Notes under the pieces: generated by a model
What the model was told of the DNA's origin: nothing
Database searches by the model: none
The model's input: only the letters and a program-made list of their open reading frames with translations
Made by a program: the position numbers and the translations under genes
From: Octopus sinensis
Taxonomy: Eukaryota
Direction of reading: 5' to 3'
DNA: 64,000 nt
Assembly: GCF_006345805.1 (NCBI RefSeq)
Contig: NC_043011.1
Location: 24,068,464 to 24,132,463, forward strand
Shown here: positions 1-64,000 of the stretch, piece by piece
Numbering within the stretch: the stretch's first letter is position 1
Layout: each line of letters starts with the position of its first letter

Positions 1-1059
1 GTATGTGTGTGTACACCAGAGTGTGAATATGAGCACGTATGACAGAGTACTTGCAAGAGTGTGAATGGGAGTGATCTTGGAAGTGTAACAAAGCTAGTTG
101 AACAGAAATAATTAAAGACAGACTGTACATATTGCCCATTTGTGAAGTGCATCCTCCCTGCTTTCTCAATCATTATCGTAATAATCTTTACTCATCTTCT
201 GAACTTTCTAACAACATAGCACCTCCAATCAAACATACATTCTCCTGTCACCCCACTGATTATGCATTAAGCACTTCACTCACAAACCTTCTCTGCAATA
301 CTCTCCCCATGCTTATTTTCTCTTCTTTCAATCATTGACAACTAAAGATCCAAAACGAACATTAACTAGTAGGAACTGGAAAAGCTATAGAGCGCATCAC
401 AAACCAATTTCCATGTCTAAATAAGAAAATAAACAAACAAGACTATATAGGTAAAACTACATAAGAAAATATTTGATGTGAGAAAAAATAAACAAACAAG
501 CAAACATAAAACAAAGACAGATGACACTGCATTAGTAAAACTATATATATATATATGGCTGAAAGGAATTTTAAAGAGTAAATGACAGTAAAAGACATAT
601 GCAATACTGAATGACTAAAATATTAATATTTTGAATTGCATTCCAAATCAGTCATTAGCTTGTCTTGTCTCAGTTTTTGTTTTAGTTATTCTGAGCAGAT
701 CAAAGCTGAATGAATTATTCAAATCTATGATAAAATAAATAAATGCAAGTAGCAAAGTATGAAAAAAAAAATAGTTAATTGCATAATATGTGCAATATCT
801 TTACATAAACAGTGAGTAAATATTGGTATACTTACAAAACATAACAGAGCTAAGCTTAGTAGTGATGCAGACAACTGATTAATCCAAGTATATTATTGGT
901 TATTCTTTATTTTATTTTTTTGTCTAGAAAGAATGACAAAATCAAACACCTTGCAGAATTTGAACTCATAAGCGAGAAAGAGAAAGAGAGCCCAAAAATA
1001 ATTTTACATTTTTTTTTATTTAGAGCATATACTGTCTTAGCTACTTGCAAATTAAATGT

Positions 1060-1276
1060 TGGCTTCAAATTTTGCCACAAGGCCAGAAATTTTGAGGGAG
1101 GGAGAAAGTCGATTTTATCAACCCCAGTGCTCAACTGGTACTTATTTTATATACCCCAAAAGGAATGAAAGCTAAAATCAACCTTGGTAGAATTTGAACT
1201 CAGAATGTAAAGATGGACAAAAATGCTACTAAGCATTTTGCCTAGTGCACAAATGATTCTACCAGTTTACTGCCTT
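1060..1276 (-). mobile_element. SINE copy (family B here; core TTCTGAGTTCAAATTC..AAGGTCGACTTTGCCTTTCATCC)
   Basis: Reverse complement matches the + strand copies at 12150-12355 and 30855-31025 (GAGTTCAAATTC, ACTTTGCCTTTCATCCTTTTGGGG, GGCCTTGTG tail). Confidence 0.7.
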
Positions 1277-1629
1277 ACTTGCAAATTAAATATAAGATTA
1301 AAATTAAATATTCTAAACTTCATGAATGACTCCACATTTTCTGCCACAAAAAACAAAATGACCTACAAACAAACAACTCTATGGAGTCTTGAAAAAATAA
1401 TAAACAAACAAAAAACAAAACATTATTTCAAAGATAACTGGTCAAAGTTACCATTAAAATTATAATTACTAGAAACAGAACATGGCAAAAGACCAGCTTT
1501 ATCACTTTACTGATTAAGATAGACAAGTTTTAGTCACTGACTTTTAAGCGATAAAGATGACATGCTATCTATTGTTCTAAATAACTACATGTATAGCTAA
1601 TAACCATAATGAGTCACAATCCAATGTAA

Positions 1630-2018
1630 GAACCCCTATACAGTCACTCAACCTACAAAAAATAGCAGTCAAATCTCATCCTACCATCTTAAAAAAGGAG
1701 GACACATTGGATAATCTTGTCACAAGTGAAAAAAATTTGGCGGAGGGGTGGGGGTGGAATGAGCCATTTATGACTGGAATGATTGATCATAGATCTGCTG
1801 AATCAGGGCTGATTTGGGGTTAAACAACTCTAAAGAAAGAACTTGTACATTATCACTCAACCAATTAGAAATAGGAAGTAAAATCTATTGACACTTAACT
1901 ATCATAAAATGGAAAGATACACTAGAAAATGTAGTCCTGATATATAAAAAGACAGTCTTGGTTGAACCAACTTTGAACACAAAACTACTTTATCAATATT
2001 GACCTAGGGTTAAACATC
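1630..2018 (-). repeat. Two tandem copies of a ~200 bp dispersed repeat (family C here)
   Basis: Motifs CAAATCTCATCCTACCATCTTAAAAA..GGACACATTGGATAAT..ATGACTGGAATG..GGGTTAAACAA occur twice and recur at 2815, 9080, 11635, 30395 and 30600. Confidence 0.65.
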
Positions 2019-2294
2019 AACCACTCCAGTTCCTGTTAGGTTATGCTCTGTCCTCTCTTTCTCCTAAATGGAATTCTGCTATTCAAAACTTACTGGCTGC
2101 TCATCAGTCATCTTGTCTCCTCTCTCTTAACCCCATCATGACTATTAATAATTTTTGATGCTTCAAATACTATGCTCTTAAGAGAAGAAAATGACAAAAT
2201 TAAAAGCTTGAATGATTTCTAAAGATTATTTACATTTGAACAGTATTATTGCAAACAAGCAATTATAATATCTGACAGTTGTGGCAGAATTACT

Positions 2295-2610
2295 GACATG
2301 GTTGTACAGCAGATGAATTTCCTTTGCAAGTAAGTGGTTCTGGGTTTGATCCCACTGCACAGCATCTTGGCTAGTGTCCTACCACAGCTATTGACACTTT
2401 AAGAGTCATGTATATACATGTTTGTATTTACTCCAAAACCAGTATTGTTTAAAGAAGCAGCATTGTATGAAAACAATGCCAAACTTCACAATTCAAAATA
2501 TATAGATCAATAAAATAAGTACTAGGGGAGGGGCAATATGATCAACTAAGCCTTTGATGACACCTCAGTATGATTGAAGTCCAGTGACTGAAACCAGTAA
2601 TATAAAAGAA
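2295..2610 (+). mobile_element. Degenerate tRNA-derived SINE (family A)
   Basis: GGTTCTGGGTTTGATCCCACTGCA head and TGACTGAAACCAGTAA tail match the intact copy at 56262-56677. Confidence 0.6.
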
Positions 2611-2814
2611 TGTAACATATATTTTCTTGCAAGATATTTACTTCTACACCAGCCCAACTTCTCAACTGCTGCTTCCAAACACAAAGGGATTCATTTGCCA
2701 ATAACTTGTGCTGACATACACATGCATGTACCTGAACATATGTATAGGTCTGAAATGTTTCTATAATTTACTTGGGTAATTAATATTAAAACTGAATTAC
2801 TATGACAGAAGTAT

Positions 2815-3030
2815 AATTGTTCTTTAGCCCCAGGTTGGCTCTGGAGGAAAAAGGTCCATGATCAAAGTGTTTTAAATGTGACCAACTAACTTTTCTTTTA
2901 AACGATAGTGTACCCCAGACTATATAATCCACAGTGTCTTTCCTTTAAGATGGTATGGTGTTAACTAAAGGATATTTAACTGTTATTACTAGCAAGTTGA
3001 ATGTCCATGTAGAGAGACTCCTTGTCGACT
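2815..3030 (+). repeat. Family C dispersed repeat
   Basis: TTTAGCCCCAGGT..ATGATCAAAG..TTTAAGATGGTATGGTG..CTAGCAAGTTGA is shared with the other family C copies. Confidence 0.6.
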
Positions 3031-4684
3031 CTTAATGATGTAGAGTTAAACAATTACTCGAATGAAGAAAAGGTTGAGTGATAGTTAGTAAGAAATAAAT
3101 GATTATACAGTAAGGTTGTTATTGTAAATTGATGGATATTCTCAAATTACAATATATTGTGTTGATAAAACAAAAGTTTTTTTTTTGTTTTTTTTTGGCT
3201 GTTTTCATCCATGAGTGTGTTGGTTTTTGCTGGAGCAACTGTTTCAACAACTGAATGTCCTTCCTTCATAACTGCTTAAGTAGAAGTGAAACTAGCTATC
3301 AGTCAGGCTAGCTGAACCAAAAGATAAGGATAAATCAATTGTTATAGTCATGAGACTTATAACTTTGTGATCAAGAGTCTAGCACCTTAACCGGATAGCC
3401 ATATGTCTATTTCTTTATACACATACATAATTAACTACTATTCCATTACTCGAAGCTTTTCATTGCAATGACATTCATCAAATAGCATATCAAGACATTT
3501 TTGAAAATCATATGAAGACATTTAGTACACTGAGATTCTATTACAACACAGACACATCTTCAATGGGAAGATGTTATTTAAAATAGAAGAGAGAAAAACC
3601 TAACAAATTATGGTAATATAAAAGTATCATGTTCAATTTCAGAAGATAAATAATTTACTATAGGTAACATCATGAGGTTGTTTGGAAACCCCACCCACAC
3701 TCACACATAATCTACTCATTTGCTTCCAACGAGAACATTTCACTATCTTATAGAATTGCTAAAGAAATATTTAAACTATACTTTTATAAGAACAAACACA
3801 GGATCAAGAATCTACATTAATTGAAAATGTTTTATTTTTCTGCTATTTGACACTTCCTGTTGACGAATATCAAAACAATGAAAATTTGAGCAAAAGTTTG
3901 ATAAAACTTAGCAAGTAATTATTAAATTAATACTTTTTGCCCATCTGAATGTCTTTATCTAGGCCATCAAATTAAATCTGATTATGCATGTGTGTGTGAA
4001 AAGTGACACCCTCACAAACTGCTAGTGTGGAAGAGTGTTAAGTATTTATCAAAACAAAGTCAATATTTTCACATATAAACACCCACAAAAAGAAAATGAG
4101 ATACAAAAAGAAGCATATGTTGTTTAATATTTTTATATTCAACATCATTTTAAACAGTAATGGAATTGGACATAAAATAATTAGTGATAATATATTTTGT
4201 TAGTGTTAAAAAAAAAAAAAAATTCTGAGCAATTTGATTTGGTGTTTCTACACAAAGGTGTCAACATGCAGGAATAGAAAGTGGAGAAAAAGATATGAAG
4301 AAAAATTCAGTTTTCATCAATATTGATATAGATAGGAATTATTGATTTTCTATGAAGGTCAGATATAGATTGATTAGCTAGTGTACAGAATGCTATATAA
4401 CAACTTGTACATATTTCAGAAATACGCAAGAAGTTATGTTGCATGACAGCAGACAGAACTACAAAAAGAAACATTCAACATGAAGCATACACACACAGTC
4501 AGTCTGTCTAAACATATTTTTAGCTCCATTGCTTAAGAACCATGGTTGTGCACTAAGATTAACCAGATCAAGTATGAGAATGCTTGACTGCAGCTAGCAG
4601 GTTTACAACTGTTATAAAACCTCAATATCATTGTTAATAAAAGCTGATATCAATGATTTAAATAATTCTTGCAAAACATGCAAG

Positions 4685-9737: not shown

Positions 9738-10572
9738 AATGACCACATGCAAGTGGGAGAAATTAGAAGTAGTTAATAGTTTCCACTACCTAGGCGACCA
9801 AGTCTGTAGTGGGGGTAGCTGCTCTGAGAGTGTAGTGACTAGAGTAAGAATAGCCTGGGCAAAGTTCAGGGAGCTCCTACCTCTGCTGGCAACTAAGGAC
9901 TTCTCGCTCAGAGTGAAAGGTAGATTGTATGATGCATGTGTGAGAACTGCCATGCTACATGGCAGTGAAATATGGGCCATGAATGCTGAGGACATGCATA
10001 GGCTTGAAAGAAATGAAGCTAGTATGATCTGCTGGATGTGTAATGTCATGGTGCATACATAACAGTGTAAGTGCCCTGAGAGAAAAGTTGGGCATAAGAA
10101 GCATCAAATGTGGTGTGCAAGAGAGGCGTCTGTGCTGGTATGGTCATGTGTTATGTATGAATGAAGATAGCTGTGTGAGGAAGGACCACTCCCTAACCTG
10201 TGGAAGAGGTAGACCCAGGAAGACATGGGATGAGGTGGTGAAGCATGAACTTCGAACATTGGGCCTCACAGAGGACCTTTGGAGATATGGTCAATGCCAG
10301 GTCTGCCTGACTGGCTCTTGTAACAGTGGCACATAAAAAGCACTATCTGAACGCAATCGATGCCAGGCCCACCTGACTGGCTCCCATGCCGGTGGTACGT
10401 AAAAAGCACCTACTACACTCTCAGACTGGTTGGCATTAGGAAGGGCATCCAGCTGTAGAAACATTGCCAGATCAGATTGGAACCTGGTGCAGCTGCTGGC
10501 TCTCCAAACCTCAGTCAAACCATCCAACCCATGCCAGCATGAAAAATGGATGTTAAATGATGATGCTGATGA
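9738..10572 (+). mobile_element. 5'-truncated RTE-clade LINE (RT thumb/C-terminus, 3' UTR, (GAT)n tail)
   Basis: ORFs 9652-10062 and 10043-10336 read LEVVNSFHYLGD, RVRIAWAKFRELLPLL, KGRLYDACVRTAMLHGSE, RRLCWYGHV and GRGRPRKTW. The conserved 3' terminus and ATGATGATG tail follow. Confidence 0.92.
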
Positions 10573-15935: not shown

Positions 15936-18224
15936 GTATTTAAAACAAAGTCAATGTAGTCACATTCCTAATGGAAGATGATTACAATGATGATATGATT
16001 CAAGTCCATTAAAGATATTTTCATTAAAACCATTTTTATTTGAAACAGATCTTGGACTTATTTTTCTTATTGAAAGACATACTAAATATGACAAGTTGAA
16101 ATATGAAGAATGTATATATGCAAACTCTATAAATATGTATACATATGTGTGAAATAATCTAAGATTTTCATCTATGATAAAGAAGGAAAAAAAAGGAGTA
16201 ATCAATGTACACTTATTCTAACAATATTTAGGAAAGATGTATTTGTAAACATTTCTTATTTGCAAGAAAATTTTTTAAATGCAAAAAAAAATATATATAT
16301 ATAAATATATAAAATAAATTATATTTCAGAAGCTTGAACTGGAAAACTTACCTTCAGGCAAAGAACGTATTTCATTCAAAGAATTTAAAAAAAGAATATT
16401 CAACTAGATTTAGATAGCAATTAGCTTATATCTGTTCAAGTTTATGCCTGAGTGGTTTTCTTTGATCTTCCAGTGCTAGACTTTGATATACCTTTTTAAT
16501 CCAAAATTTAATATACACACACTCGTACATATATACACATACACGCATAAGCATATATATATACAATACACACATATATGCATACATACACATATATGCA
16601 CACACATACATATGCTTATACACAAATAGAAATGCATTATTCATGGCTGAATTTAGCCAAATATACCACCAGATAATGTTCTTGTGCATGCATGCATATG
16701 TGTATTTATGAGAAAAACACATTTTTTTTTCAAAATAGTAAATATTTTTATGTAATTGCTCCCAGACAAATCAAATTACCCTCTTTTGCTGAATCTCTCT
16801 CATTGACAATAGGTACCATTCCTATTTCATGGTTGAGGAGTTAGCAAAAGCAGTAAAGAAGGCATCCCCTGATAAATGTTCCTGTAAATCTTTTAACTTA
16901 TTAGAGCTTACCTAATTTATTGTAGCATGGGGACAGAGAGCGATAAAAAAAAAGATTGCAAAGCAGCATTTGTAAATATATGACTGATATAAGTCTTTAT
17001 ATATGTGATTCAAAAGTCTCATTAATATAATTAACAGGCTGCCAACAAGGTCTGATGAACTCATGTCTCTCTATTGACTGCTGTGGACCAGAGATTCCAG
17101 GAAAACAAACTACAGCCCTCTGTCCATAATGTCTGCTGTATGAACTGCCCCAGATAGTTGAACTGGTTTGTCCAGGTCTACATGGACAACTGAACAGCAT
17201 TATTCTTACATTGTGCCACTTTTATTTAGGACAATGAATATTCTCTCATTTTTTGATAATGACAAGAAACATAAATGTAAGCACCATGTGAAGTAGAGAA
17301 TTGGGTGACAATCTATCATCTGTTACATTAGCCAAAGTGGAATAGTGACACCACCATACTGATTACAAAAGAAGGGGCACAATAAGCTGCTTTGGAGAGT
17401 TAATTTCTGGTACTGAGTTATTCTTAGGACAGAAATAGACAATATCACTGATATAGTTGAAGTGAATGAAGAAATCAATTGGCATTTCATTCCAATGTTT
17501 ATAAATGTATAGTGATTTTACTTCAAAGTAAAGGCTGTGTTATAAATGATATAAAGATTACCTATAACATTGAAGCCACTAGTAGTCCCTTTAAAAGCAA
17601 TGCAACATATATATTAGAGTTTACAAAATGTCAGTTAACTTTCTTTGACCTTTCAATAGGATCTGAAATTTACATTACTTATGCAACAGGATGATCTGAT
17701 AAGTATGAACATTAACGGTATAGATAAGGCTAAATAATATAAACATTAGATAACATGTAACTGTAAAATTATTTAACATATAATTTCATACATTTAAAAG
17801 TGTATTTATATATTCATCGTTTTGCTAGAGTTAGCTGTTCATACTAAATGTTAAGCCAGCATGTAAAAGAGAAGGAAAATATATACAGGATAAATTTTTT
17901 AGATGTTTATCAATTCACATTATACATAATTTCTTTGAGAGATTAATAGGAAAATAATGGAAATATATATAGGTATGATAACTGTGCTTATGCAGTTAAA
18001 ATTATACAAGAGTAGGCAATAAAAACCAAACATCAGTCTTTTTTCAACAGATTTTACTCGAGATAGAGGATACTGAGTAAAAGATTTTGATTTGTTTACA
18101 GAAACAAGTTAGAATTGATTTTATACATATTCAGAAAGTTATACTTATGCAACATTAAAATTTTTCTCGAGTTAAAATTTTTCAAGTTAATTTCCTCTAT
18201 AAAAGAGAAACAAATGATGTTATA

Positions 18225-18261
<37 letters not shown>

Positions 18262-18265
<4 letters not shown>

Positions 18266-18494
18266 TTTTGGCTAGGTTGATTCTAAGGCCCTTCGATTCT
18301 AATCCTTGTTTCCACACCTGAAACTTCTCCTCCAGTTCTGATAGTGACTCAGCAATTAGAGCAAGGTCATCAGCATATAGGAGCTCCCAGGGGCATCCTG
18401 TCTTAATTCTTCCGTTATTGCCTGGAGGACTATGATAAATAGGAGGGGGCTGAGGACTGAACCTTGGTGGACCCCAACCTCTACCCGGAATTCT
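18262..18494 (-). mobile_element. Inverted duplicate of RTE RT segment 18505-18738 (left arm of fold-back)
   Basis: Reverse complement of 18505-18738 with a single 1-nt indel seen (AATTAAG vs AATTTAAG). It abuts (TA)n on the left. Confidence 0.97.
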
Positions 18495-18496
18495 AG

Positions 18497-19571
18497 TACA
18501 GTGAAGAATTCCGGGTAGAGGTTGGGGTCCACCAAGGTTCAGTCCTCAGCCCCCTCCTATTTATCATAGTCCTCCAGGCAATAACGGAAGAATTTAAGAC
18601 AGGATGCCCCTGGGAGCTCCTATATGCTGATGACCTTGCTCTAATTGCTGAGTCACTATCAGAACTGGAGGAGAAGTTTCAGGTGTGGAAACAAGGATTA
18701 GAATCGAAGGGCCTTAGAATCAACCTAGCCAAAACCAAAGTCCTAATAAGTAGGAAGGTGGACCAACCACAAACGACTTCAGGTAGATGGCCCTGCTCGA
18801 TCTGTAAAAAAGGTGTAGGTAGAAACTCTATAAGGTGCACCAAGTGTAAGCTATGGACACATAAGAGGTGCAGCAATGTCAAAGGAAGGCTAACTAAGAA
18901 AATAGTTTTTGTCTGTGGCAGATGCTCAGGAGAAATAAACACTGGAAATGTGCAGAGACCAACTTCTACCACGTTCCAGGGAGACAAACTAGAAGTAGTT
19001 GATAGCTTCCGCTACCTAGGAGACCAAGTCAGTAGCGGGGGTGGGTGTGCCGAAAGTGTAACTGCTAGAGTAAGAATAGCCTGGGCAAAGTTTAGAGAGC
19101 TCTTACCCCTGCTGGTGACAAAAGGCCTCTCGCTAAGAGTAAAAGGCAGACTATATGATGCGTGTGTACGTACAGCCATGCTACATGGTAGTGAAACATG
19201 GGCCGTGACAGCTGAGGATATGCGTAAGCTTGCAAGAATGAAGCCATGCTCCGATGGATGTGTAATGTCAGTGTTCATAATCGTCAGAGTGTAAGTACTT
19301 TGAGAGAAAAGTTGAACCTAAGAGTGTCAGTTGTGGTGTGCAAGAGAGACGGCTGCGCTGGTATGGTCATGTGATGAGAATGGCTGAAGATAGTTGTGTG
19401 CAAAAGTGCTACACCCTAGCAGTTGAGGGAACCTGTGGAAGAGGTAGACCCAGGAAAACCTGGGACGAGGTGGTGAAGCACGACCTTCGAACTTTAGGTC
19501 TCACCAAGGAAATGACTGAAGACCGAGTCCTATGGAAGTGTGCTGTGCATGAGAGGACCCGGCAGGACTAG
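18497..19571 (+). pseudogene. RTE-clade LINE reverse transcriptase ORF, 5'-truncated, with an internal PHD-type finger; small frameshifts near 19240 and 19322
   Basis: One open frame from 18497 reads YSEEFRVEVGVHQGSVLSPLLF, LLYADDL (YADD at 18623-18634), GLRINLAKTK, a C4HC3 finger, FRYLG and AMLHGSETW. It continues RRLRWYGHV, GRGRPRKTW, TRQD* with the stop at 19569-19571. Confidence 0.95.
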
Positions 19572-22500
19572 TCAGGCCATATCCCATGGCCCCTACCTGG
19601 GACGTAGTCGATCCACCTGTGCATACCTCCCTTCTTGTGACACTTGTGAAGACCTGCTGAGGCAAGTGAAAATCAATCAAAATAGATGAACATCAATGGA
19701 ATTTGTATCTTTGTGGTACCAGTGCCTGTGGCACACAAGAAAACCATCCGAACGTGGCCGTAGCCAGTACCGCATCGACTGGCCTCCGTGCTGTGGGAAC
19801 ATGGTGGCACATAAAACACACCATCCGAAGACCCGGCAAGACTAGTCAGGTCATACCCGTGGGCCCTACCTGGGACGTAGTCAGTCCACCTGTACATACC
19901 TTCCTTCTTGTGACACTTGTGAAGACCTGCTGAGGCAAGTGAAAATCAAATCAAATCAAAACAAATCAAAATAGATGAACATCAATGGAATTTCTATCCT
20001 TGTGGTACCAGTGCCGGTGGCACACAAGAATCCATCCGAACGTGGCCGTAGTCAGTACCGCCTGTGGTACCAGTGCCGGTGGCACACAAGAATCCATCCG
20101 AACGTGGCCGTAGTCAGTACCGCTTGTGGTACCAGTGCCGGTGGCACACAAGAATCCATCCGAACGTGGCCGTAATCAGTACCGCATCACTCGCCATCGT
20201 GCTGTGGGCACATAACAAACACCATCCGGTCGTGGCCGTTCGCCAGCCTCATCTAGCACCTGTGTCGGTGGCACATAAAAAGTAGTCAGTACCGCTTGTG
20301 GTACCAGTGCCGGTGGCACACAAGAATCCATCCGAACATGGCCGTAGTCAGTACCGCATCACTGGCCATCGTGCTGTGGGCACATAACAAACACCATCCG
20401 GTCGTGGCCATTCGCCAGCCTCATCTAGCACCTGTGTCGGTGGCACATAAAAAACACCTTCCGAAGACCCGGCAAGACTAGTCAGGCCATAAACCATGGC
20501 CCCTACATGGGACGTAGTCAGTCCACCTGTGCATACCTTCCTCCATGTGATACTTGTGAAGGCCTGTTGAGGCAAGTGAAAATCAAAATCAAATCAAAAC
20601 AAATCAAAATAGATGAACATCAATGGAATTTGTATCTTGTGGTACCAGTGCCGGTGGCACACAAGAGAAAACCATCCGAAAGTGGCCGTAGCCAGTACCG
20701 CATCGACTGGCCTCCGTGCTGTGGGCACACGACAAACACCATCCGATCGTGGCCGTTCGCCAGCCTCATCTAGCACCTGTGTCGGTGGCACATAAAAACA
20801 CCATCCGAAGACCGGCAAGACTAGTCAGGCCATAACCCATGGCCCCTACCTGGGACGTAGTCAGTCCACCTGTGCATACCTTCCTTCTTGTGACACTTGT
20901 GAAGACCTGTTGAGGCAAGTGAAAATCAATCAAAACAAATCAAAATAGATGAACATCAATGGAATCTGTATCTTTGTGGTACCAGTGCGGTGGCACACAC
21001 TTTGTGGTACCAGTGCCGGTGGCACACAAGAGAACCATCCGAATGTGGCCGTAGCCAGTTCCGCATCGACCGGCCTCCGTGCTGTGGGCATGTAACAAAC
21101 ACCATCCGATCATGGCCGTTCGCCAGCCTCATCTCATCTGGCACCTGTGTCGGTGGCACATAAAAAACACTTCCGAAGACCGGCAAGACTAGTCAGTCCA
21201 CCTGTGCATACCTTCCTTCTTGTGACACTTGTGAAGACCGGTTGAGGCAAGTGAAAATCAAAATCAAATCAAAATAGACAAAATAGATGAACATCAATGG
21301 AATTTGTATCTTGTGGTACCAGTGCCTGTGGCACACAAGAATCCATCAGTGCCGTAGTCAGTGCGGTGGGCACATGACAAACACCATCCGATCGTGGCCG
21401 TTCGCCAGCCTCATCTAGCACCTGTGTCGGTGGCACATAAAAAACACCATCCGAAGACCCGGCAAGACTAGTCAGGCCATAACCCATGGCCCCTACCTGG
21501 GACGTAGTCAGTCCACCTGTGCATACCTTCCTTCTTGTGACACTTGTGAAGACCTGTTGAGACAAGTGAAAATCAAAACAAATCAAAATCGATGAACATC
21601 AATGGAATTTGTATCTTTGTGGTACCAGTGTCGGTGGCACGTGGCACATAAGAAAACCATCCGAACGTGGCCGTAGCCAGTACCGCATCGACTGGCCTCC
21701 GTGCTGTGGGCACGTAACAAGCACCATCCGATCGTGGCCGTTTGCCAGCCTCATCTGGCACCTGTGTCGGTGGCACATAAAAAACACCATCCGAGCGTGG
21801 CCGTCTGCCAGCCTCGTCTGGCACCTGTGTCGGTGGCACATAAAAAACACCATCCGAGCGTGGCCGTCTGCCAGCCTCGTCTGGCACCTGTGTCGGTGGC
21901 ACATAAAAAACACCATCCGAAGACCCGGCAAGACTAGTCAGGCCATAACCCATGGCCCCTACCTGGGACGTAGTCAGTCCACCTGTGCATACCTTCCTTC
22001 TTGTGACACTTGTGAAGACCTGTTGAGACAAGTGAAAATCAAAACAAATCAAAATCGATGAACATCAATGGAATTTGTATCTTTGTGGTACCAGTGTCGG
22101 TGGCACGTGGCACATAAGAAAACCATCCGAACGTGGCCGTAGCCAGTACCGCATCGACTGGCCTCCGTGCTGTGGGCACGTAACAAGCACCATCCGATCG
22201 TGGCCGTTTGCCAGCCTCATCTGGCACCTGTGTCGGTGGCACATAAAAAACACCATCCGAGCGTGGCCGTCTGCCAGCCTCGTCTGGCACCTGTGTCGGT
22301 GGCACATAAAAACACCATCCGAGCGTGGCCGTCTGCCAGCCTCGTCTGGCACCTGTGTCGGTGGCACATAAAAAACACCATCCGAGCGTGGCCGTCTGCC
22401 AGCCTCGTCTGGCACCTGTGTCGGTGGCACATAAAAAACACCATCCGAGCGTGGCTGTTTGCCAGCCTCGTCTGGCACCTGTGTCGGTGGCACATAAAAT
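19556..22500 (+). repeat. Hierarchical tandem array in the RTE 3' UTR: 7 higher-order units built from ~30 modules of 62-67 nt
   Basis: The unit marker GACC(C)GGCA(A/G)GACTAGTCAG starts at 19556, 19830, 20466, 20810, 21178, 21456 and 21922. The module core GGTGGCACAYAAAAAACACCATCCGANCGTGGCCGT recurs about 30 times. Confidence 0.97.
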
Positions 22501-22675
22501 CACCCACTACATTCTCGGAGTGGTTGGCGTTAGGAAGGGCATCCAGCTGTAGAAACACTGCCAGATCTGACTGGACTGGTGCAGCTTTCGGGCTCCCCAG
22601 ACCCCAGTTGAACCGTCCAACCCATGCTAGCATGGAAAGCGGACGTTAAATGATGATGATGATGATGATGATGAT
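22501..22675 (+). mobile_element. Conserved RTE 3' terminus with CCATGCTAGCATGG palindrome and (GAT)n tail
   Basis: GAGTGGTTGGCGTTAGGAAGGGCATCCAGCTGTAGAAA..CCATGCTAGCATGG..TTAAA(TGA)n is shared with the copies ending at 10572, 35915, 36157 and 62465. Confidence 0.93.
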
Positions 22676-22814
22676 ATATATATATAAATTCATACAGAAA
22701 TTTCATATTTCCAAAATAATTCAACTGCTTAGCATCAAATTTCCAGTTGAAAGTTTAAAAAAAAAAATTTTTAAGTTATAAGAATATACATAATGTGCAA
22801 AAATATTTCCCACA

Positions 22815-33954: not shown

Positions 33955-35915
33955 GCTAAACATGGAAAATGAATGGGAGAAGGAGAGTCTATAGACCCAA
34001 CTGAGGGACCAGCTATCTAAATCAACAATAGCTTGGTGGATAAAGCAATTAAGGATATGAAAACAGGAAAAGCCCCTGGCCCATCAGGAATCACTACTGA
34101 GATGCTAAAAATATCTGGTGGAGTAGGATAAGGCCTAGTCACCTATATAGTTAATCAGGTTGTCCATGAGGGAGTAATACCCAGTGATTGGTGTAGCAGC
34201 ATTATAGTCAACTGCTACAAAGGCAAAGGTTATGCCTTAGACAGAAATAATTATAGAGGCATCAAATTGCTGAACCAGGTGATGAAAGTCACAGAAAGAG
34301 TCATAACTCAATTAATTAAGAGAGTTAGTGTAGATGAGATGCAGTTCAGACTTGTGCCAGGCAGGAGCACGACTGATGCTATATTCCTGGTTAGGCAACT
34401 TCAGAAGTATTTAGCCAAAAATAAACCTCTGTACCTGGCTTTTGTTAACATGGAGAAAGCCATTGACAAGGTCCCCTATTTCCCTTATCTGGTGGTCAAT
34501 GCAGAAGCTAGGGGCAGATGAGTGGTTAGTGGAAGCAGTACAAGCCATACATATGTAGGTGTTCACCAAGGCCCAGTTCTCAGCCCCTCCTGTTTACCTT
34601 AGTCCTCAAGGCCTTAACAGAGGAATTCAAGACTGGCTGTTCCTGGGAGCTCCTCAACACTGATGACCTTGTTTTTATAATTGAATCACTACCTGACTTA
34701 TAGAAGAAATTTCAGGTGTGGAAACAAGATCTGAAATCTAAAGGCCTTAGAGTTAATTTTAGCAAAACCCAAAGTCCTAGTAAGTAGGGAAACAGACAAG
34801 CACTAGTCCCTTCTGGAAGATGGCCTTGCTTGATACGTAAGAAGAGTGTTAGTAGAAACTCCATATGTTGAACCCAGTGCAAGCTTTGGACACATAAGAG
34901 GTGTAGTGGTATCACAGGAAGGTTAATGGAGAATAGCCTTTGTATGTAGCAAATGTGCAGGTACAATAAGCACTAAAAATGTGCAGACAATAGGCTCCCT
35001 CAAATGCTGGGTGTGTGTGTTGGGGGGTGTCATTAGAAGTAGTATGTAGCTTCTGCTACCTAGGAGACCAAGTTAGAAGTGGTGGTGGAGGAAGTTCTGA
35101 AAGTGTAGTAGCTAGGATAGGAACATACTGGTTGAAGTTCAGAGTGAAAAGCAGATTGTATGATGCCTGTGTATGTACAGCTGTGTTACATGGCAGAGAA
35201 ACATAGGCTTTGCTACAGAGGACTTGTGAAAGCTTGAAAAAGATAAAGCTAGCATGCTTTGCTGGATGGGTTATATCAGTGTGCATGCACAACAGAGTGT
35301 AAATGATTTAAGAGGAAAATTGGGTATAAGAGGCATCAGATGTTGTGTGCAAGAGAGAAGACTGCACTGGTTTAGTCATATAATGCATATGGATGAAGAC
35401 AGCTGCATAAAGAAGTGCCAAGTTCTAATTGTGGAGGGTACCTGTGGAAGGGGTAGACCCAGGAAAATGTGGGAAGAAGTGGTGAGAAATGATCTTCAGA
35501 CGCTGGACCACACTGAGGAAATGACAAGGGACCAAGAGATGTGGCAATTTGCTGTACTTGATAAGACACATCAAATTAAGTAAAGTGGCTGTCTTCAACA
35601 CATACCGGCTTGACCTTTCAAGTACTGGTGCCACTTAAAAAGCAACTGTGCTGGTGCTGCGTTAAAACAACTGTGCCAGTGCTGTATAAATACACCTGTT
35701 CTGGTGCTGTGTAAATGCACCTGTGCCAGTGGCATGTAAAAAGCACCCAGTACAGTACATACTGTTAAGTGGTTGGCATTAGGAAGGGCATCCAGCCATA
35801 GAAACCATGCCTCAACAGACAGCTGGAGTCTGGACAGCTCCCTGCTAGACAACTCCATGTCAAACCATCCAACACATGCTAGCATGGAAAGCAGACATTA
35901 AATGATGATGATGAT
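33955..35915 (+). mobile_element. Decayed RTE LINE (most of RT, PHD remnant, 3' UTR with ~24-nt repeats, (GAT)n tail)
   Basis: Reads KAIKDMKTGKAPGPSGI, NYRGIKLL, PGRSTTDAIFLVRQLQ, VHQG, NTDD (decayed YADD), CKLWTHKRC, FCYLG and GRGRPRKMW, with many stops and indels. Confidence 0.93.
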
Positions 35916-35929
35916 ATATCTTTGGCATT

Positions 35930-36157
35930 ATGTCATGCTTGAGAAGAAGACCCATCAAGCCGAGCAAAATCACAGTCATGGCAGATACCAGTGTCATGCA
36001 AATGGCACCCATTACAATCTCAGAGTGGTTGGTGTTAGGAAGGGTATCCAGCCATAGAAAACCGTGCCAAATCAGACTGGAGTCTGGTGCAGCCTTCCAG
36101 CTTTGGTCAAACTGTTCAACCCATGCCAACACAGACAACCGACATTAAATGATGATA
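35930..36157 (+). mobile_element. Short RTE 3'-end fragment immediately behind the previous copy
   Basis: GCTTGAGAAGAAGACCC..CTCAGAGTGGTTGGTGTTAGGAAGGGTATCCAGCC..CCCATGCCAACAC..ATTAAATGATGAT. Confidence 0.85.
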
Positions 36158-38844
36158 GATAGACAGATAGATAGATAAATATATAAATAGGCTGTTTTAA
36201 CAGCCAATATGGCTTTGAGAAAAGGCTCATGTTTCATATCAAAGAATATTGCTGACACTTGACATTATATACACGTCATATTAGCAATACATATATAGAT
36301 ATAGATACATGTATGTAGTATAATGCTAGGTATCAAAGAATATATAGAGTTAGTCATCAACAAAGAATTATATAGTGTTGAAAACATAGTCAAAAGTCTA
36401 AATATTCCCCACTGCACTCCACATTCACAGACATGTAATTCCTTCTATATTCTATATAATATTTCTTACCAGGCATACTTAACTAAATAGCACTTATATT
36501 TATGAAACATTTACTTACTCTTAGCTCTTTAGGAACAGTTTCTATTCAAGTAAACCAAACAAAATTAAGAGAGCATTAACTCCAACTATATTCTTCTATA
36601 ACATCAATGCACGATATTAGTCCAGTCTTCCTTTCTTGAATTGTTACAAGGGAATTTTTTTTTTTTTTTTTTTTGTGAAATCAAATATAAAATGTATTCT
36701 AATATCAAAAAATCTTTATATGATACTTTTTCAATAAAATTCATTATATGAAAATGCACACAAAATTCCTACAGAATCAACTCTGGAAACAGTCAATAGG
36801 AAAACCAGAAAATTTGAAAAGGAATCTGTCACTATTGTATGGCCATGTTCTAGTGGGTAGAGTTATAGACTAATACAAATGGTTAAGGTTTCTATTGAAT
36901 ACACATGTAACAACAACAACTGGAAACAGTAAGGAGGGGTGAAAAAGTAAAAGGAAGGAAATTAAAGAAAAATGTCAAGAAATGTGAAAGAAACAAATGA
37001 ATGCATTCAGCCAGATTTCTATTTAAAAAATAAAGCAAGGGGGAAAGAAATTAAATCAATACGACATAATTAGATTTGTTTTACATGCAGCTATTCACTG
37101 TGAATTTGCATAGAAAGAATGAGTAGATATATGGAACGAGTAAGAGAAAATAAACTAATATGAACGAATAGAAAGAAATGTATGAGAAATGATGATCTGT
37201 ATGTGATTGGTTGATACATGTATAACAAAGAGAAAGATGGTTGGGTGGAGGGAGAGTAAGTATCTCTGTATAGAATAATTCCGGACAATAGCTAAATGAA
37301 TTAATTCAGGTTGATGTAGTCTTTACAGAATATATACACTTGTAGAAGAAAATTTTTGTAAACTTGATAATACACAAAGAGAATGGATGGACTATAGTGA
37401 AGATTAGTGGTTGTTATGACATAGCTTAAAGCCTACAATGTATGTTTGCACATGCCACAATTTGTTGGTTTAATATCATAATGACACACATACATATCGA
37501 ATGTATACATTACAATGAATGAATGTTAATTTTAACTGTTTTTAAAACCTATGGAAACCTACTCCAATCATTGTTTTATTAGCTTTCACATCATTATCTT
37601 TAGAAATTATAAAGAAATTTTAATTTTATTAATTCTCAATCCATTAAAGTTATCATTTTAAAACCATTAGTAAACTCATAAATCTACATCAACAAGACTG
37701 TAACTAAATCATCAGAATCCATTTATACAAAATATCAAATGCTCGGAAAAGAAAGAAAAAAAATATTGTGACCCATTGAACAGGAGAGATCAAATCAGAT
37801 TTCATTTAAACAAGTAAATAAAAAAAAAATTAAATATCATAGCAAATAAATTGTATCAGAAGTAGCAGTAGTTGCTTGCCAGCTGGTGAACACTTTTCTT
37901 TAGATTGTATTGATTTCTTATAGCTTGGCATTTAAAGCCAAACTCAAATAAGCTAGTTTACTATTTCTGATCAACTTGCTCTAACAAAGAATTCTATTTC
38001 AAAGTAGTATTATTATCCAAGTGTTCAGGATTTGACTTAGATAATTTCATTTTTATTTAAATGAAATTTTTGATAACCAAAATATATACATAAAGTACTA
38101 CTACAATTAAATTACTATCCATAACTAAGAAATATTTAATTTTATATGCAATATATTCATATAGGATGTATATAATGAATTTCTAGACAAAATGTTAAGA
38201 TATGCATGTTCTACAAAAACATTTCCTCTTGTGAATTTGTTCTTCAAAGTGAATTTAACTAGACATGATTAAATCTTAAGCTGATATCACCTGCAGTAAT
38301 ACAACTCTTTTTAAATTTTGGTAAGTTAGAAATATTAGCCTGGTTGCCTTGTTCTATATAATTTGATTTATTTATTTAAACTAAAATCTGAAGAAGAATG
38401 AGAGAGAGGGACATCATAATTTTCAATAGAAGAGCACTTTCTTTGACTATAAAATAGTCTTCTGGTTCAGTTTATTTTTCGAAATTCCCACTTATCACAT
38501 TATCATTTTGTTTCAAGCAAAATTATCACATTACCATTTTATCACACTTTGTTTCAGGCAAAGAAAGATGCTATGATGTAATCTCCATTCTCATAAATGG
38601 AGAAAATTCCTTTGAAGTTTTGTATTTCTAAATTTTCATTCAATTGCCTCTAGTCACCATATTCCAACAAGCATCATCACAACAATTATTATGTTCAATA
38701 TCTCAACAAACATTTAAGCAATTTTTGCAAGTAACAGAAATGACAGTATCAAAAGAGTTAATGTTCTATGCATATATTTTACACAGATTAAACTGAACAA
38801 TATGTTCAGTTTGTATGAATAGAGAAAAATAAATGTAATCTAAC

Positions 38845-62464: not shown

Positions 62465-64000
62465 TGCATGATCATCATCGCCATCGTTTAACATCCATTT
62501 TCCATGCTGGCATTGGTTGGACTGTTCGGCTGGGGTCTAGGAAGCCAGGAGGCTACACCAGGCTCCAGTCTGATCTGGCAGTGTTTCTACAGCTGGATGC
62601 CCTTCCTAACGCCAACCACTCTGAGAGTGTAGTGGGTGATTTTTTACGTGCCACTGGCACAGGGACCAGGCATCAACCAAGATTGGATGGTGCATTTTAC
62701 GTGCCACTGGCATGGAAGCCAGTCAAGGAGGCGCTGGCATTGGCCACGTTTGTATGGTGCTTTTTTGATTTTGATGTACTTGACTTAATAGAGCTCCTCA
62801 AGCATGGTACTTTTGAGTGGGCTGGTTATGCGACACTGGTGTAGGTTACAGCTGTGAACTCACTTTATTTGCCAGGTCTTCTCAGTCACAGCATATCTCT
62901 AGAGGTCTCGGTCTTTTGTTATTGCCTCTGTGAGGCCCAAAGTTCAAAGGTCATGCTTCACCACCTCATCCCATGTCTTCCTGGGTCTCCCTCTACCCCG
63001 GATTCTTCCCTGTTTGGGAGTGGTGTTGCTTCACACAGCTCTTCTCATCAATCCGTAGTACAAGACCATACCAACGTAAACATCTCTCTTGCATGCCACA
63101 TCCAATGCCTCTTATGTCCAAGATTTCTCTCAGGGCACTTACACTCTGTCGTGTGTGCACACTGACATTACACATCCAGCAGATCATGCTAGCTTCATTT
63201 CTTTCAAGCCTACGCATGTCTTCAGCAGTCACAGCCCATGTTTCACTGCCATGAAGCATGGCAGTTTGCACACATGCATTGTACAATCTACCTTTCACTC
63301 TGGGCGAGAGGCTCTTTATCACCAGTAAGGGTAGAAGCTTTCTGAACTTTGCCCAGGCAATTCTTATTCTAGTGGTAACACTCTCTGAGCATCCACCCCC
63401 ACAAGAGACTTGGCCACCTGGGTAGCGGAAGCTATCAACTACTTCTAGTTTCTTCCCTTGGCATGTGATGGAATCTGTTTTATGAGCATCTGTGATGTTT
63501 ATTGCTCCTGTGCATCTGCTGCACACAAAAGCTATCTTCCTGGTTAATCTTCCTTTGATGTTGCTGCACCTCTTATGTGTCTATAGCTTACACTAGGTAC
63601 ATCTTATGGAATTCTTTTCTGGATTGGGCTGCTTCTTGGCATCCTTCTGGCCTAGAGTCTAAAGTCACTAATGAACAGTCTATGCTGGGGGTTACATTCC
63701 TTGCCCGAGAGGGTCTTTGTATTTAAGAGTAGTCCTGCATCCCACTGTCTGGTGAGGACGAAATCAATCCGGTTAGCAGAGTCACCTGATTGATAGGTTA
63801 TCAGGTGGCTGTCTGGTTTCCTGAAGTTAGTGTTGCAGGTTAAAAGGTTACATGCATCACAAAACTCCAGTAGCCTAGTTCCCTCATTGTTTTGGGAACC
63901 AATACCATGGCTCCTGTGTACACCAGTGAAGGTATCAGACTGCTGCCCAACATGCCCATTAAAATCATCAGCCACAAAGATGAGGTCATTGCCACTCCTC
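62465..64000 (-). mobile_element. RTE LINE with large internal deletion (AP endonuclease C-terminal half joined to PHD/RT C-terminus); runs off the window end
   Basis: 63652-63975 reads DFNGHVG, NNEGTRLLEFC, IDFVL and QHRL (APE endonuclease). 62993-63526 reads LEVVDSFRYPG and AMLHGSETW. The 3' UTR modules and (CAT)n tail are at ~62470. Confidence 0.93.

What the first reader, a model, noticed from the sequence alone, without database searches (positions are those of the whole stretch)
19556..22675. Reverse transcriptase ORF followed directly by a ~3-kb hierarchical repeat/spacer array
Seen in the sequence: from the last codons of the RT ORF (TRQD-stop), the 3' UTR is expanded into 7 higher-order units. 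They start at 19556, 19830, 20466, 20810, 21178, 21456 and 21922 (lengths 274, 636, 344, 368, 278, 466 and ~580). Each unit has a ~170-nt leader (ORF end and stop, GGCCAT-N5-ATGGCC hairpin, AAATC run) plus 2-8 modules of 62-67 nt. Each module is a conserved ~36-nt core (GGTGGCACAYAAAAAACACCATCCGANCGTGGCCGT) plus one of about three spacer types: AGCCAGTACCGCATCGACTGGCCTCCGTGCT, TCGCCAGCCTCATCTAGCACCTGTGTC or AGTCAGTACCGCYTGTGGTACCAGTGCC. The true terminus with its (GAT)n tail occurs only once, so this is not a stack of independent 3'-end insertions. The other RTE copies in this window have only 1-6 modules. Inference: the array could be an RNA scaffold (many protein-binding hairpins, or a small-RNA precursor) amplified by RT template jumping or unequal exchange, or a satellite being born from a LINE 3' UTR.
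Basis: partly seen in the sequence, partly recalled or inferred. Interest (0 to 1): 0.82.

Follow-up and report, generated by a model that had tools for sequence, protein, structure and literature searches.

The report
Octopus LINE with inherited tail array
The repeat array is the inherited tail of a young octopus jumping gene, found at hundreds of sites with its units in the same order; it likely grows and shrinks by copying slips and is probably a passenger, since short-tailed relatives also spread.

Summary
The array is real but not a one-off. It is the 3' UTR of a very young RTE-like LINE subfamily in an octopus genome. All six internal junctions are identical. That 31-nt junction has 2,521 exact matches genome-wide, plus 897 of a deleted variant. 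Of 58 typed sister copies, 45 have at least 5 units and 43 start with the same unit pair A-B. Same-position units differ by 0.3-1.6% between loci, but different units differ by 2-8%. Copies have their own flanks, 5' truncation and (TGA)n tails, so the array moves with the element. The 'spacers' are homologous versions of one old 63-nt module, not acquired sequences. The best reading is one founding duplication, then homology-guided gains and losses, mostly in source elements or during reverse transcription. The array appears dispensable: a collapsed one-unit form occurs at 4 separate sites. Structure signals are weak, and junctions are dispersed with no large satellite block. The window copy is a dead, 5'-truncated insertion with one extra, locus-specific unit. 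No description was found in nine literature searches; Repbase and Dfam could not be checked.

The parts
18230..18262 (.). (TA)n microsatellite at the 5' insertion boundary
   Evidence: family-wide association with TA repeats
18263..18496 (-). 234-nt fold-back inverted duplication of about 18504-18738, identical except one T in a run
18497..19571 (+). 5'-truncated LINE ORF: RT C-terminal part, PHD-like finger, C-terminal region; broken by small deletions; stop TAG at 19569-19571
   Evidence: (RVT_1 E 1.9e-14; PHD E 6.7e-5, below Pfam cut-off)
19555..19828 (+). Unit A (ORF end, leader, 2 module cores)
19829..20464 (+). Unit B (leader and 8 cores, with internal 62-nt and 172-nt duplications)
20465..20808 (+). 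Unit C
20809..21176 (+). Unit D
21177..21454 (+). Unit E (36-nt leader deletion between two TAGTCAG repeats)
21455..21920 (+). Unit F, an extra locus-specific copy; block about 21364-21920 duplicated at 466-nt offset
21921..22509 (+). Terminal unit F' with five b-type modules
22510..22649 (+). Single conserved 3' terminal region shared with older subfamilies; likely the RT-recognition element (inferred)
22650..22675 (+). (TGA)8 tail, followed by (TA)n flank

Best explanation
The array is the heritable 3' UTR of a young octopus RTE-like LINE subfamily, copied to new sites together with the element, and it likely expands and contracts by homology-guided template jumps between near-identical modules while probably serving no required function. 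Shown: an old ~63-nt module sits in tandem before the 3' terminus of many older subfamilies; one junction (module core joined to the last codons of the ORF, 2-3 nt microhomology) recurs in every internal unit; units keep positional identity across independent insertions. Inferred: one founding tandem duplication made that junction; later gains and losses of modules and whole units arose mostly in source elements or during reverse transcription (RT template switching favoured), and sometimes in DNA after insertion (the window's seventh unit); only the single terminal region would be needed for RT recognition.
For: Junction 31-mer: 2,521 exact matches, control 0; deleted variant 897; this subfamily's ORF end 330. 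Of 58 typed copies, 45 have at least 5 units, 43 begin A-B, 18 are ABCDE(D/F) and 8 are ABDE(D/F). Leader divergence is 0.3-1.6% within a type across loci against 3-12 substitutions per 105-145 sites between types. ORF ends are 0.77% apart on average (29 copies). Copies have distinct flanks, variable 5' truncation and (TGA)n tails. Terminal module counts are 3 or 5 in 43 of 57 copies, and 0 of 117 locus-private module variants occur twice in their locus. Of 7 pairs with identical 917-nt ORF ends, 5 share unit count and 0 share the module string (motif typing is noisy). Signs of template switching: ORF mosaic between sister subfamilies, a 5' fold-back in the window, inverted 5' parts in L100 and L101. 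Dispensability: a collapsed 695-nt one-unit form at 4 separate sites, and 15 of 21 GAA copies have one unit.
Against: The two youngest clades are both mostly multi-unit (AGG 5-6 units at 0.77%, AAA 4 units at 0.28%), which selection could explain. The short hairpin GTGYC-NNN-GGCAC is 94.7% paired over 35 diverse modules. In the window the duplicated block shares variants found nowhere else in the young family, pointing to DNA-level duplication rather than RT. RT and DNA routes cannot be separated for events in source elements. Some private variants may be consensus errors, which weakens the 0 of 117 test.
Confidence: 0.65

Rival explanations
1. The array is selected at the level of the element: repeated module hairpins form a multivalent RNA platform that recruits the element's protein, stabilises or localises the RNA, or soaks up a host repressor.
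For: Modules are kept in tandem across many older subfamilies. Helix GTGYC-NNN-GGCAC is 94.7% paired; covariation score 0.186, reached by 1 of 500 shuffles; RNAalifold predicts the same helix. Both youngest clades are multi-unit. Stringent LINE proteins bind 3' stem-loops (PMC4176376, abstract).
Against: One-unit forms retrotranspose. There are 52 distinct architectures among 58 copies. Folding z-scores of six segments run from -2.44 to +1.09. Most two-sided changes lie at CpG positions, where decay mimics compensation, and the rows are related. No Rfam match lies in the array. Long-UTR copies reach the ORF start less often: 2 of 46 against 3 of 12, p=0.055.
Confidence: 0.2
2. The array is mainly a DNA-level minisatellite or nascent satellite that grows in place after insertion by unequal exchange or replication slippage.
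For: The window's F/F' blocks are identical over about 500 nt apart from one A in a run and share private variants. Of 112 loci, 18 hold an exact internal duplication of at least 150 compressed bases, and several repeat private sites. Satellites born from retroelement 3' UTRs are known (PMC9659126, passages).
Against: Positional orthology of units across loci; 0 of 117 private modules repeated; arrays unchanged in unit spacing in two clusters of neighbouring duplicates, L134-L136; junctions evenly dispersed, 100 against 103 expected; no array longer than 12 units seen.
Confidence: 0.1
3. Assembly artefact: collapsed or mis-joined reads inflated a short UTR.
For: No spanning read could be examined. 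The extra unit and the fold-back are near-perfect duplicates, which mis-joins can produce (about 0.2 for those two features alone).
Against: Hundreds of loci carry the same ordered, diverged units. Nine public runs hold at least half of the stretch's sampled words (some may be the source sample).
Confidence: 0.02
4. A CRISPR-like repeat/spacer array with acquired spacers, or a stack of independent 3'-end insertions.
For: Superficial core-plus-variable-part look.
Against: Spacers a and b are homologous and recur in older subfamilies; there is one terminus and tail; all junctions are identical.
Confidence: 0.01

Closest known systems
RTE-clade LINEs, e.g. RTE-2_OV of Octopus vulgaris (PMC9115989, passages read)
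   Same: Single ORF of about 1,060-1,110 aa with endonuclease and RT, microsatellite tail, same genome (88 exact matches of a published RTE-2_OV primer).
   Different: Only about 29% protein identity over endonuclease and RT; RTE-2_OV copies have a very short 3' UTR with no match to the array. This family has a PHD-like finger after the RT core and a 0.6-4.5-kb modular UTR.
Tandem repeats in the hypervariable 3' UTR of Ogre LTR retrotransposons that seed satellites (PisTR-A; PMC9659126 passages; PMC7004042 listing only)
   Same: Variable tandem arrays carried in the 3' UTR of an autonomous retroelement and spread with it.
   Different: Here a non-LTR element, a two-level array whose higher unit includes the ORF end and stop codon, and no amplified free satellite detected.
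Satellites derived from LINE 3' ends (cetacean common satellite from L1, HeT-A-derived 18HT; PMC9659126 passages)
   Same: Tandem repeats made of LINE 3' sequence.
   Different: Those are detached long arrays; this one stays inside a mobile element in front of a single working terminus.
Mouse L1 5' UTR promoter monomers (recalled, no call)
   Same: Variable tandem monomers inherited by subfamily; this family also has 525-625-nt tandem monomers in its 5' UTR.
   Different: The finding concerns the 3' UTR, where no promoter role was tested.

Membership tests
Non-LTR retrotransposon (LINE) | Endonuclease plus reverse transcriptase ORF | tested here: met
   Full-length copy L090: 1,061-aa open frame, RVT_1 E 1e-31, Exo_endo_phos E 3.6e-7
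Non-LTR retrotransposon (LINE) | Dispersed copies with fixed 3' end, simple-repeat tail and variable 5' truncation | tested here: met
Non-LTR retrotransposon (LINE) | Target-site duplications | tested here: inconclusive
   Flanks printed for 69 copies; none obvious by eye, many lie in (TA)n; no formal search
RTE clade | Single ORF, no ORF1, AP-type endonuclease, microsatellite tail | tested here: met
RTE clade | RT phylogeny groups with named RTE references | tested here: inconclusive
   29% identity (E about 1e-62) to RTE-2_OV copies; 1,123 homologues at up to 59% identity, none named RTE among the 120 listed; no reference tree built
RTE-2_OV family | Nucleotide identity to the published element | tested here: not met
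   Six primers show 6-8 mismatches at best; no blastn match of the array to 8 RTE-2_OV loci
Satellite DNA | Long contiguous arrays free of the parent element | tested here: not met
   Dispersed junctions, 100 against 103 expected on C1; longest array 12 units; unassembled arrays cannot be excluded
CRISPR-like array | Identical repeats separated by unrelated acquired spacers | tested here: not met
   Spacers homologous; no Rfam match in the array
Structured RNA scaffold | Covarying, conserved helices | tested here: inconclusive
   One 6-bp helix 94.7% paired, covariation at CpG sites; second helix 84%
Small-RNA precursor | Phased small-RNA reads | not testable with these tools
   Only assembled contigs of runs were offered

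The most novel reading that the evidence does not exclude
An active LINE lineage that escalates tandem repeats at both ends (5' promoter monomers and a nested 3' array of module hairpins) under selection, using the 3' array as a multivalent RNA platform for its own protein or as a decoy against host repressors, and reshuffling it by RT template switching in each round of retrotransposition.
Probability: 0.15. Interest if true: 0.72.

Novelty: new variant of a known kind. Interest (0 to 1): 0.45.

Why it matters
It gives hundreds of near-identical, independently inserted copies of one nested array, with short- and long-tailed sister lineages side by side. That makes two open questions testable in one system: whether LINE reverse transcription itself generates tandem and higher-order repeats, and whether UTR expansion helps or costs an element. 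It also warns that automated repeat libraries for octopus may split this UTR into separate SINE, satellite or unknown families. The single locus has no special importance.

Tried and rejected
Rfam scan of 18200-22800: 6 matches, all miRNA models on the fold-back palindrome and below their gathering scores; none in the array. Folding of six segments: only the (cb)2 segment reached z -2.44. Identity with RTE-2_OV rejected. I first read L055 and L077 as hybrids with a foreign 5' half; one search showed that the young AGG core as a whole shares that 5' part, so they are collapsed-array derivatives. AGG against AAA full-length frequency, 5 of 58 against 5 of 21, is not significant (p=0.12). Reads: one search covered all 30 bins of 18750-19860 in four runs, but no listed contig bridged the unit junction, so the junction in other organisms or in RNA is not shown; the RNA label of X17 and X20 is a guess. 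Run X23 (share 0.06) is no evidence. Earlier-findings look-ups returned nothing. Nine literature searches found no description of this array. Supplements of PMC9115989 were listed but not opened, those of PMC13282606 were not seen, and Repbase and Dfam were unavailable; a consensus for this family may exist there. Regex unit splitting undercounted units and was replaced by leader-based typing, which cannot separate D from F.

Full report
Observation. The array is present as described: seven units from 19555 to the single terminus and (TGA)8 tail at 22675. All six internal junctions are the same join of a module core (…CCATCCGA) to the last codons of the ORF (AGACCC…), with 2-3 nt of microhomology. 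The upstream ORF is a 5'-truncated fragment with RVT_1 and a weak PHD match. It has small deletions relative to a sister copy and is preceded by a 234-nt fold-back duplication and a (TA)n tract. This copy is dead.

The genome and family. The window lies on contig C15 of a 2.72-Gb genome. A published primer of the Octopus vulgaris element RTE-2_OV matches 88 times, which points to an octopus. The junction 31-mer has 2,521 exact matches and a variant with a ~37-nt deletion behind the same junction has 897. The natural ORF end has 782 matches, 330 of the window's type, and the window's terminal variant has 1,532. I fetched the first-listed loci on C1-C3. Three ORF-end types appear: AGG (the window's), AAA and GAA. 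They are 3.2-3.8% apart, with mean pairwise distances of 0.77%, 0.28% and 2.26% in 29, 15 and 14 copies (tree midpoint-rooted, so no order of events is claimed). A full-length AAA copy has a 1,061-aa open frame with endonuclease, RT and a PHD-like finger. Its 1,123 homologues reach 59% identity at best, and none of the 120 listed is named RTE. It is 29% identical to RTE-2_OV, whose copies have a very short UTR without the array. RTE membership therefore rests on architecture; no reference tree was built.

The array is inherited. Of 60 AGG loci examined (window included), 58 had a terminus within 5 kb. Of these, 45 have at least 5 units, 43 begin with types A-B, 18 read ABCDE(D/F) and 8 read ABDE(D/F); 2 gave no leader call. 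The median UTR is 2,274 nt, range 281-4,485. Leaders of one type differ by 0.3-1.6% between loci, while types differ by 3-12 substitutions in 105-145 sites. AAA copies mostly have four units (12 of 15), and 15 of 21 GAA copies have one. Copies have distinct flanks, variable 5' ends and (TGA)n tails. TA repeats lie at 41 of 69 5' boundaries and 28 of 64 3' boundaries, against 4.5% background. The array therefore travels in the RNA.

The modules. Ninety of 191 termini found in the fetched DNA belong to older subfamilies, and many of the ones printed carry the same module in tandem. One 6-bp hairpin is 94.7% paired (covariation score reached by 1 of 500 shuffles), but the two-sided changes fall mainly at CpG sites and the rows are related; a second hairpin is 84% paired. 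Folding z-scores were -2.44 to +1.09, and Rfam found nothing in the array.

How it changes. There are 52 architectures among 58 copies. Of 7 pairs with identical 917-nt ORF ends, 5 share unit count and none shares the module string (motif calls are noisy). Terminal module number is 3 or 5 in 43 of 57 AGG copies, and none of 117 locus-private module variants occurs twice in its locus. This suggests that most change predates or accompanies insertion. Signs that templates are switched include ORF mosaicism (an AGG copy is 0.3-2.4% from a GAA copy over its 5' 2.3 kb but 2.7-5.2% over the 3' 850 nt), the fold-back, and inverted 5' parts in L100 and L101. Against a purely RT origin, the window's seventh unit is a 466-nt duplication, identical over about 500 nt but for one A. 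It shares variants whose pattern has 3 matches genome-wide, two here and one in a diverged copy, so it is likely a later DNA-level event or an assembly error. Eighteen of 112 loci hold exact duplications of at least 150 compressed bases, with mixed sharing of private sites.

Function. A collapsed A-to-F one-unit form with a shared deletion occurs at four separate sites, so the higher-order array is not needed to move. Long-UTR copies reach the ORF start in 2 of 46 cases against 3 of 12 for short ones (p=0.055), a weak hint of cost. In favour of selection, both youngest clades are multi-unit, and stringent LINE proteins bind 3' stem-loops (PMC4176376, abstract only). A satellite in the making is not supported: the first 111 Mb of C1 hold 100 junctions against 103 expected from the genome-wide count, and the longest array seen had 12 units.

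Other samples. Twenty-three runs in 10 studies hold part of the stretch, 9 of them at least half of its words, under four organism codes plus one metagenome. Contigs of organisms C and D bridge the ORF end and leader A with 1-2 differences. Six runs guessed to be RNA hold 27-35% of the words. Transcription, and the junction itself outside this assembly, are not shown.

Prior knowledge. Tandem repeats in retroelement 3' UTRs that seed satellites are known for Ogre, L1 and HeT-A (PMC9659126, passages). RTE tails and insertion signatures are treated in PMC6007223 (passages) and RTE UTR-derived SINEs in PMC5786205 (passages). PMC13282606 (first third read) lists 13 recently active RTE families in O. 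vulgaris without UTR detail in that part. PMC9115989 was read as passages. Nine searches found no account of this array; Repbase, Dfam and the supplements were not seen. Mouse L1 monomers and the YY1 motif are recalled, not from a call.

Verdict. This is a real, subfamily-wide nested 3' UTR array of a young octopus LINE, most likely a mutational passenger (0.65), with element-level selection as the main rival (0.2). It is a new variant of a known kind; interest 0.45.

Noticed in passing
L114 about 3300-4980 nt upstream of the ORF end; also L108, L071: The 5' UTR is also tandem: monomers of about 613-625 nt (at least three in L114) or 525 nt (L071), with a TATA-like box and a YY1-like motif (motif recalled). 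Sister subfamilies carry different 5' UTRs.
   Followed up: partly
L090, L114, L055, L109, about 3060 nt upstream of the ORF end: A pyrimidine tract plus CAG, like a splice acceptor, lies just before an ATG in both 5' UTR types.
   Followed up: no
window 18263-18738: Near-perfect fold-back duplication with a ~10-nt loop at the 5' end; either self-primed cDNA or a long-read artefact.
   Followed up: partly
69 copies in L034-L130 and the window: Strong association of insertion boundaries with (TA)n: 41 of 69 at the 5' side, 28 of 64 at the 3' side, 4.5% background.
   Followed up: partly
AGG, AAA and GAA loci: 5' truncation points cluster near 395, 1410, 2020 and 2850 nt upstream of the ORF end, possibly RT pause sites.
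   Followed up: no
L147 against L109, L071, L083: ORF mosaicism between sister subfamilies with a switch about 850 nt before the stop.
   Followed up: partly
P0002 residues 802-845: PHD-like finger directly after the RT core, annotated in many of the 120 listed homologues.
   Followed up: no
window 9742-10572 (+), 34555-36188 (+), 62467-63613 (-): Three older relatives; the middle one has 25-nt repeats instead of 63-nt modules and a second 3' terminus stacked directly behind it.
   Followed up: partly
L134-L135 (C2, 90.64-90.65 Mb) and L136 (C3, 11.66 Mb): Three and two neighbouring copies with the same unit spacing, probably segmental duplicates or assembly duplicates.
   Followed up: partly
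L160:1046-4417: An RTE-2_OV-type copy with a 1,123-aa open frame is present in this genome.
   Followed up: no
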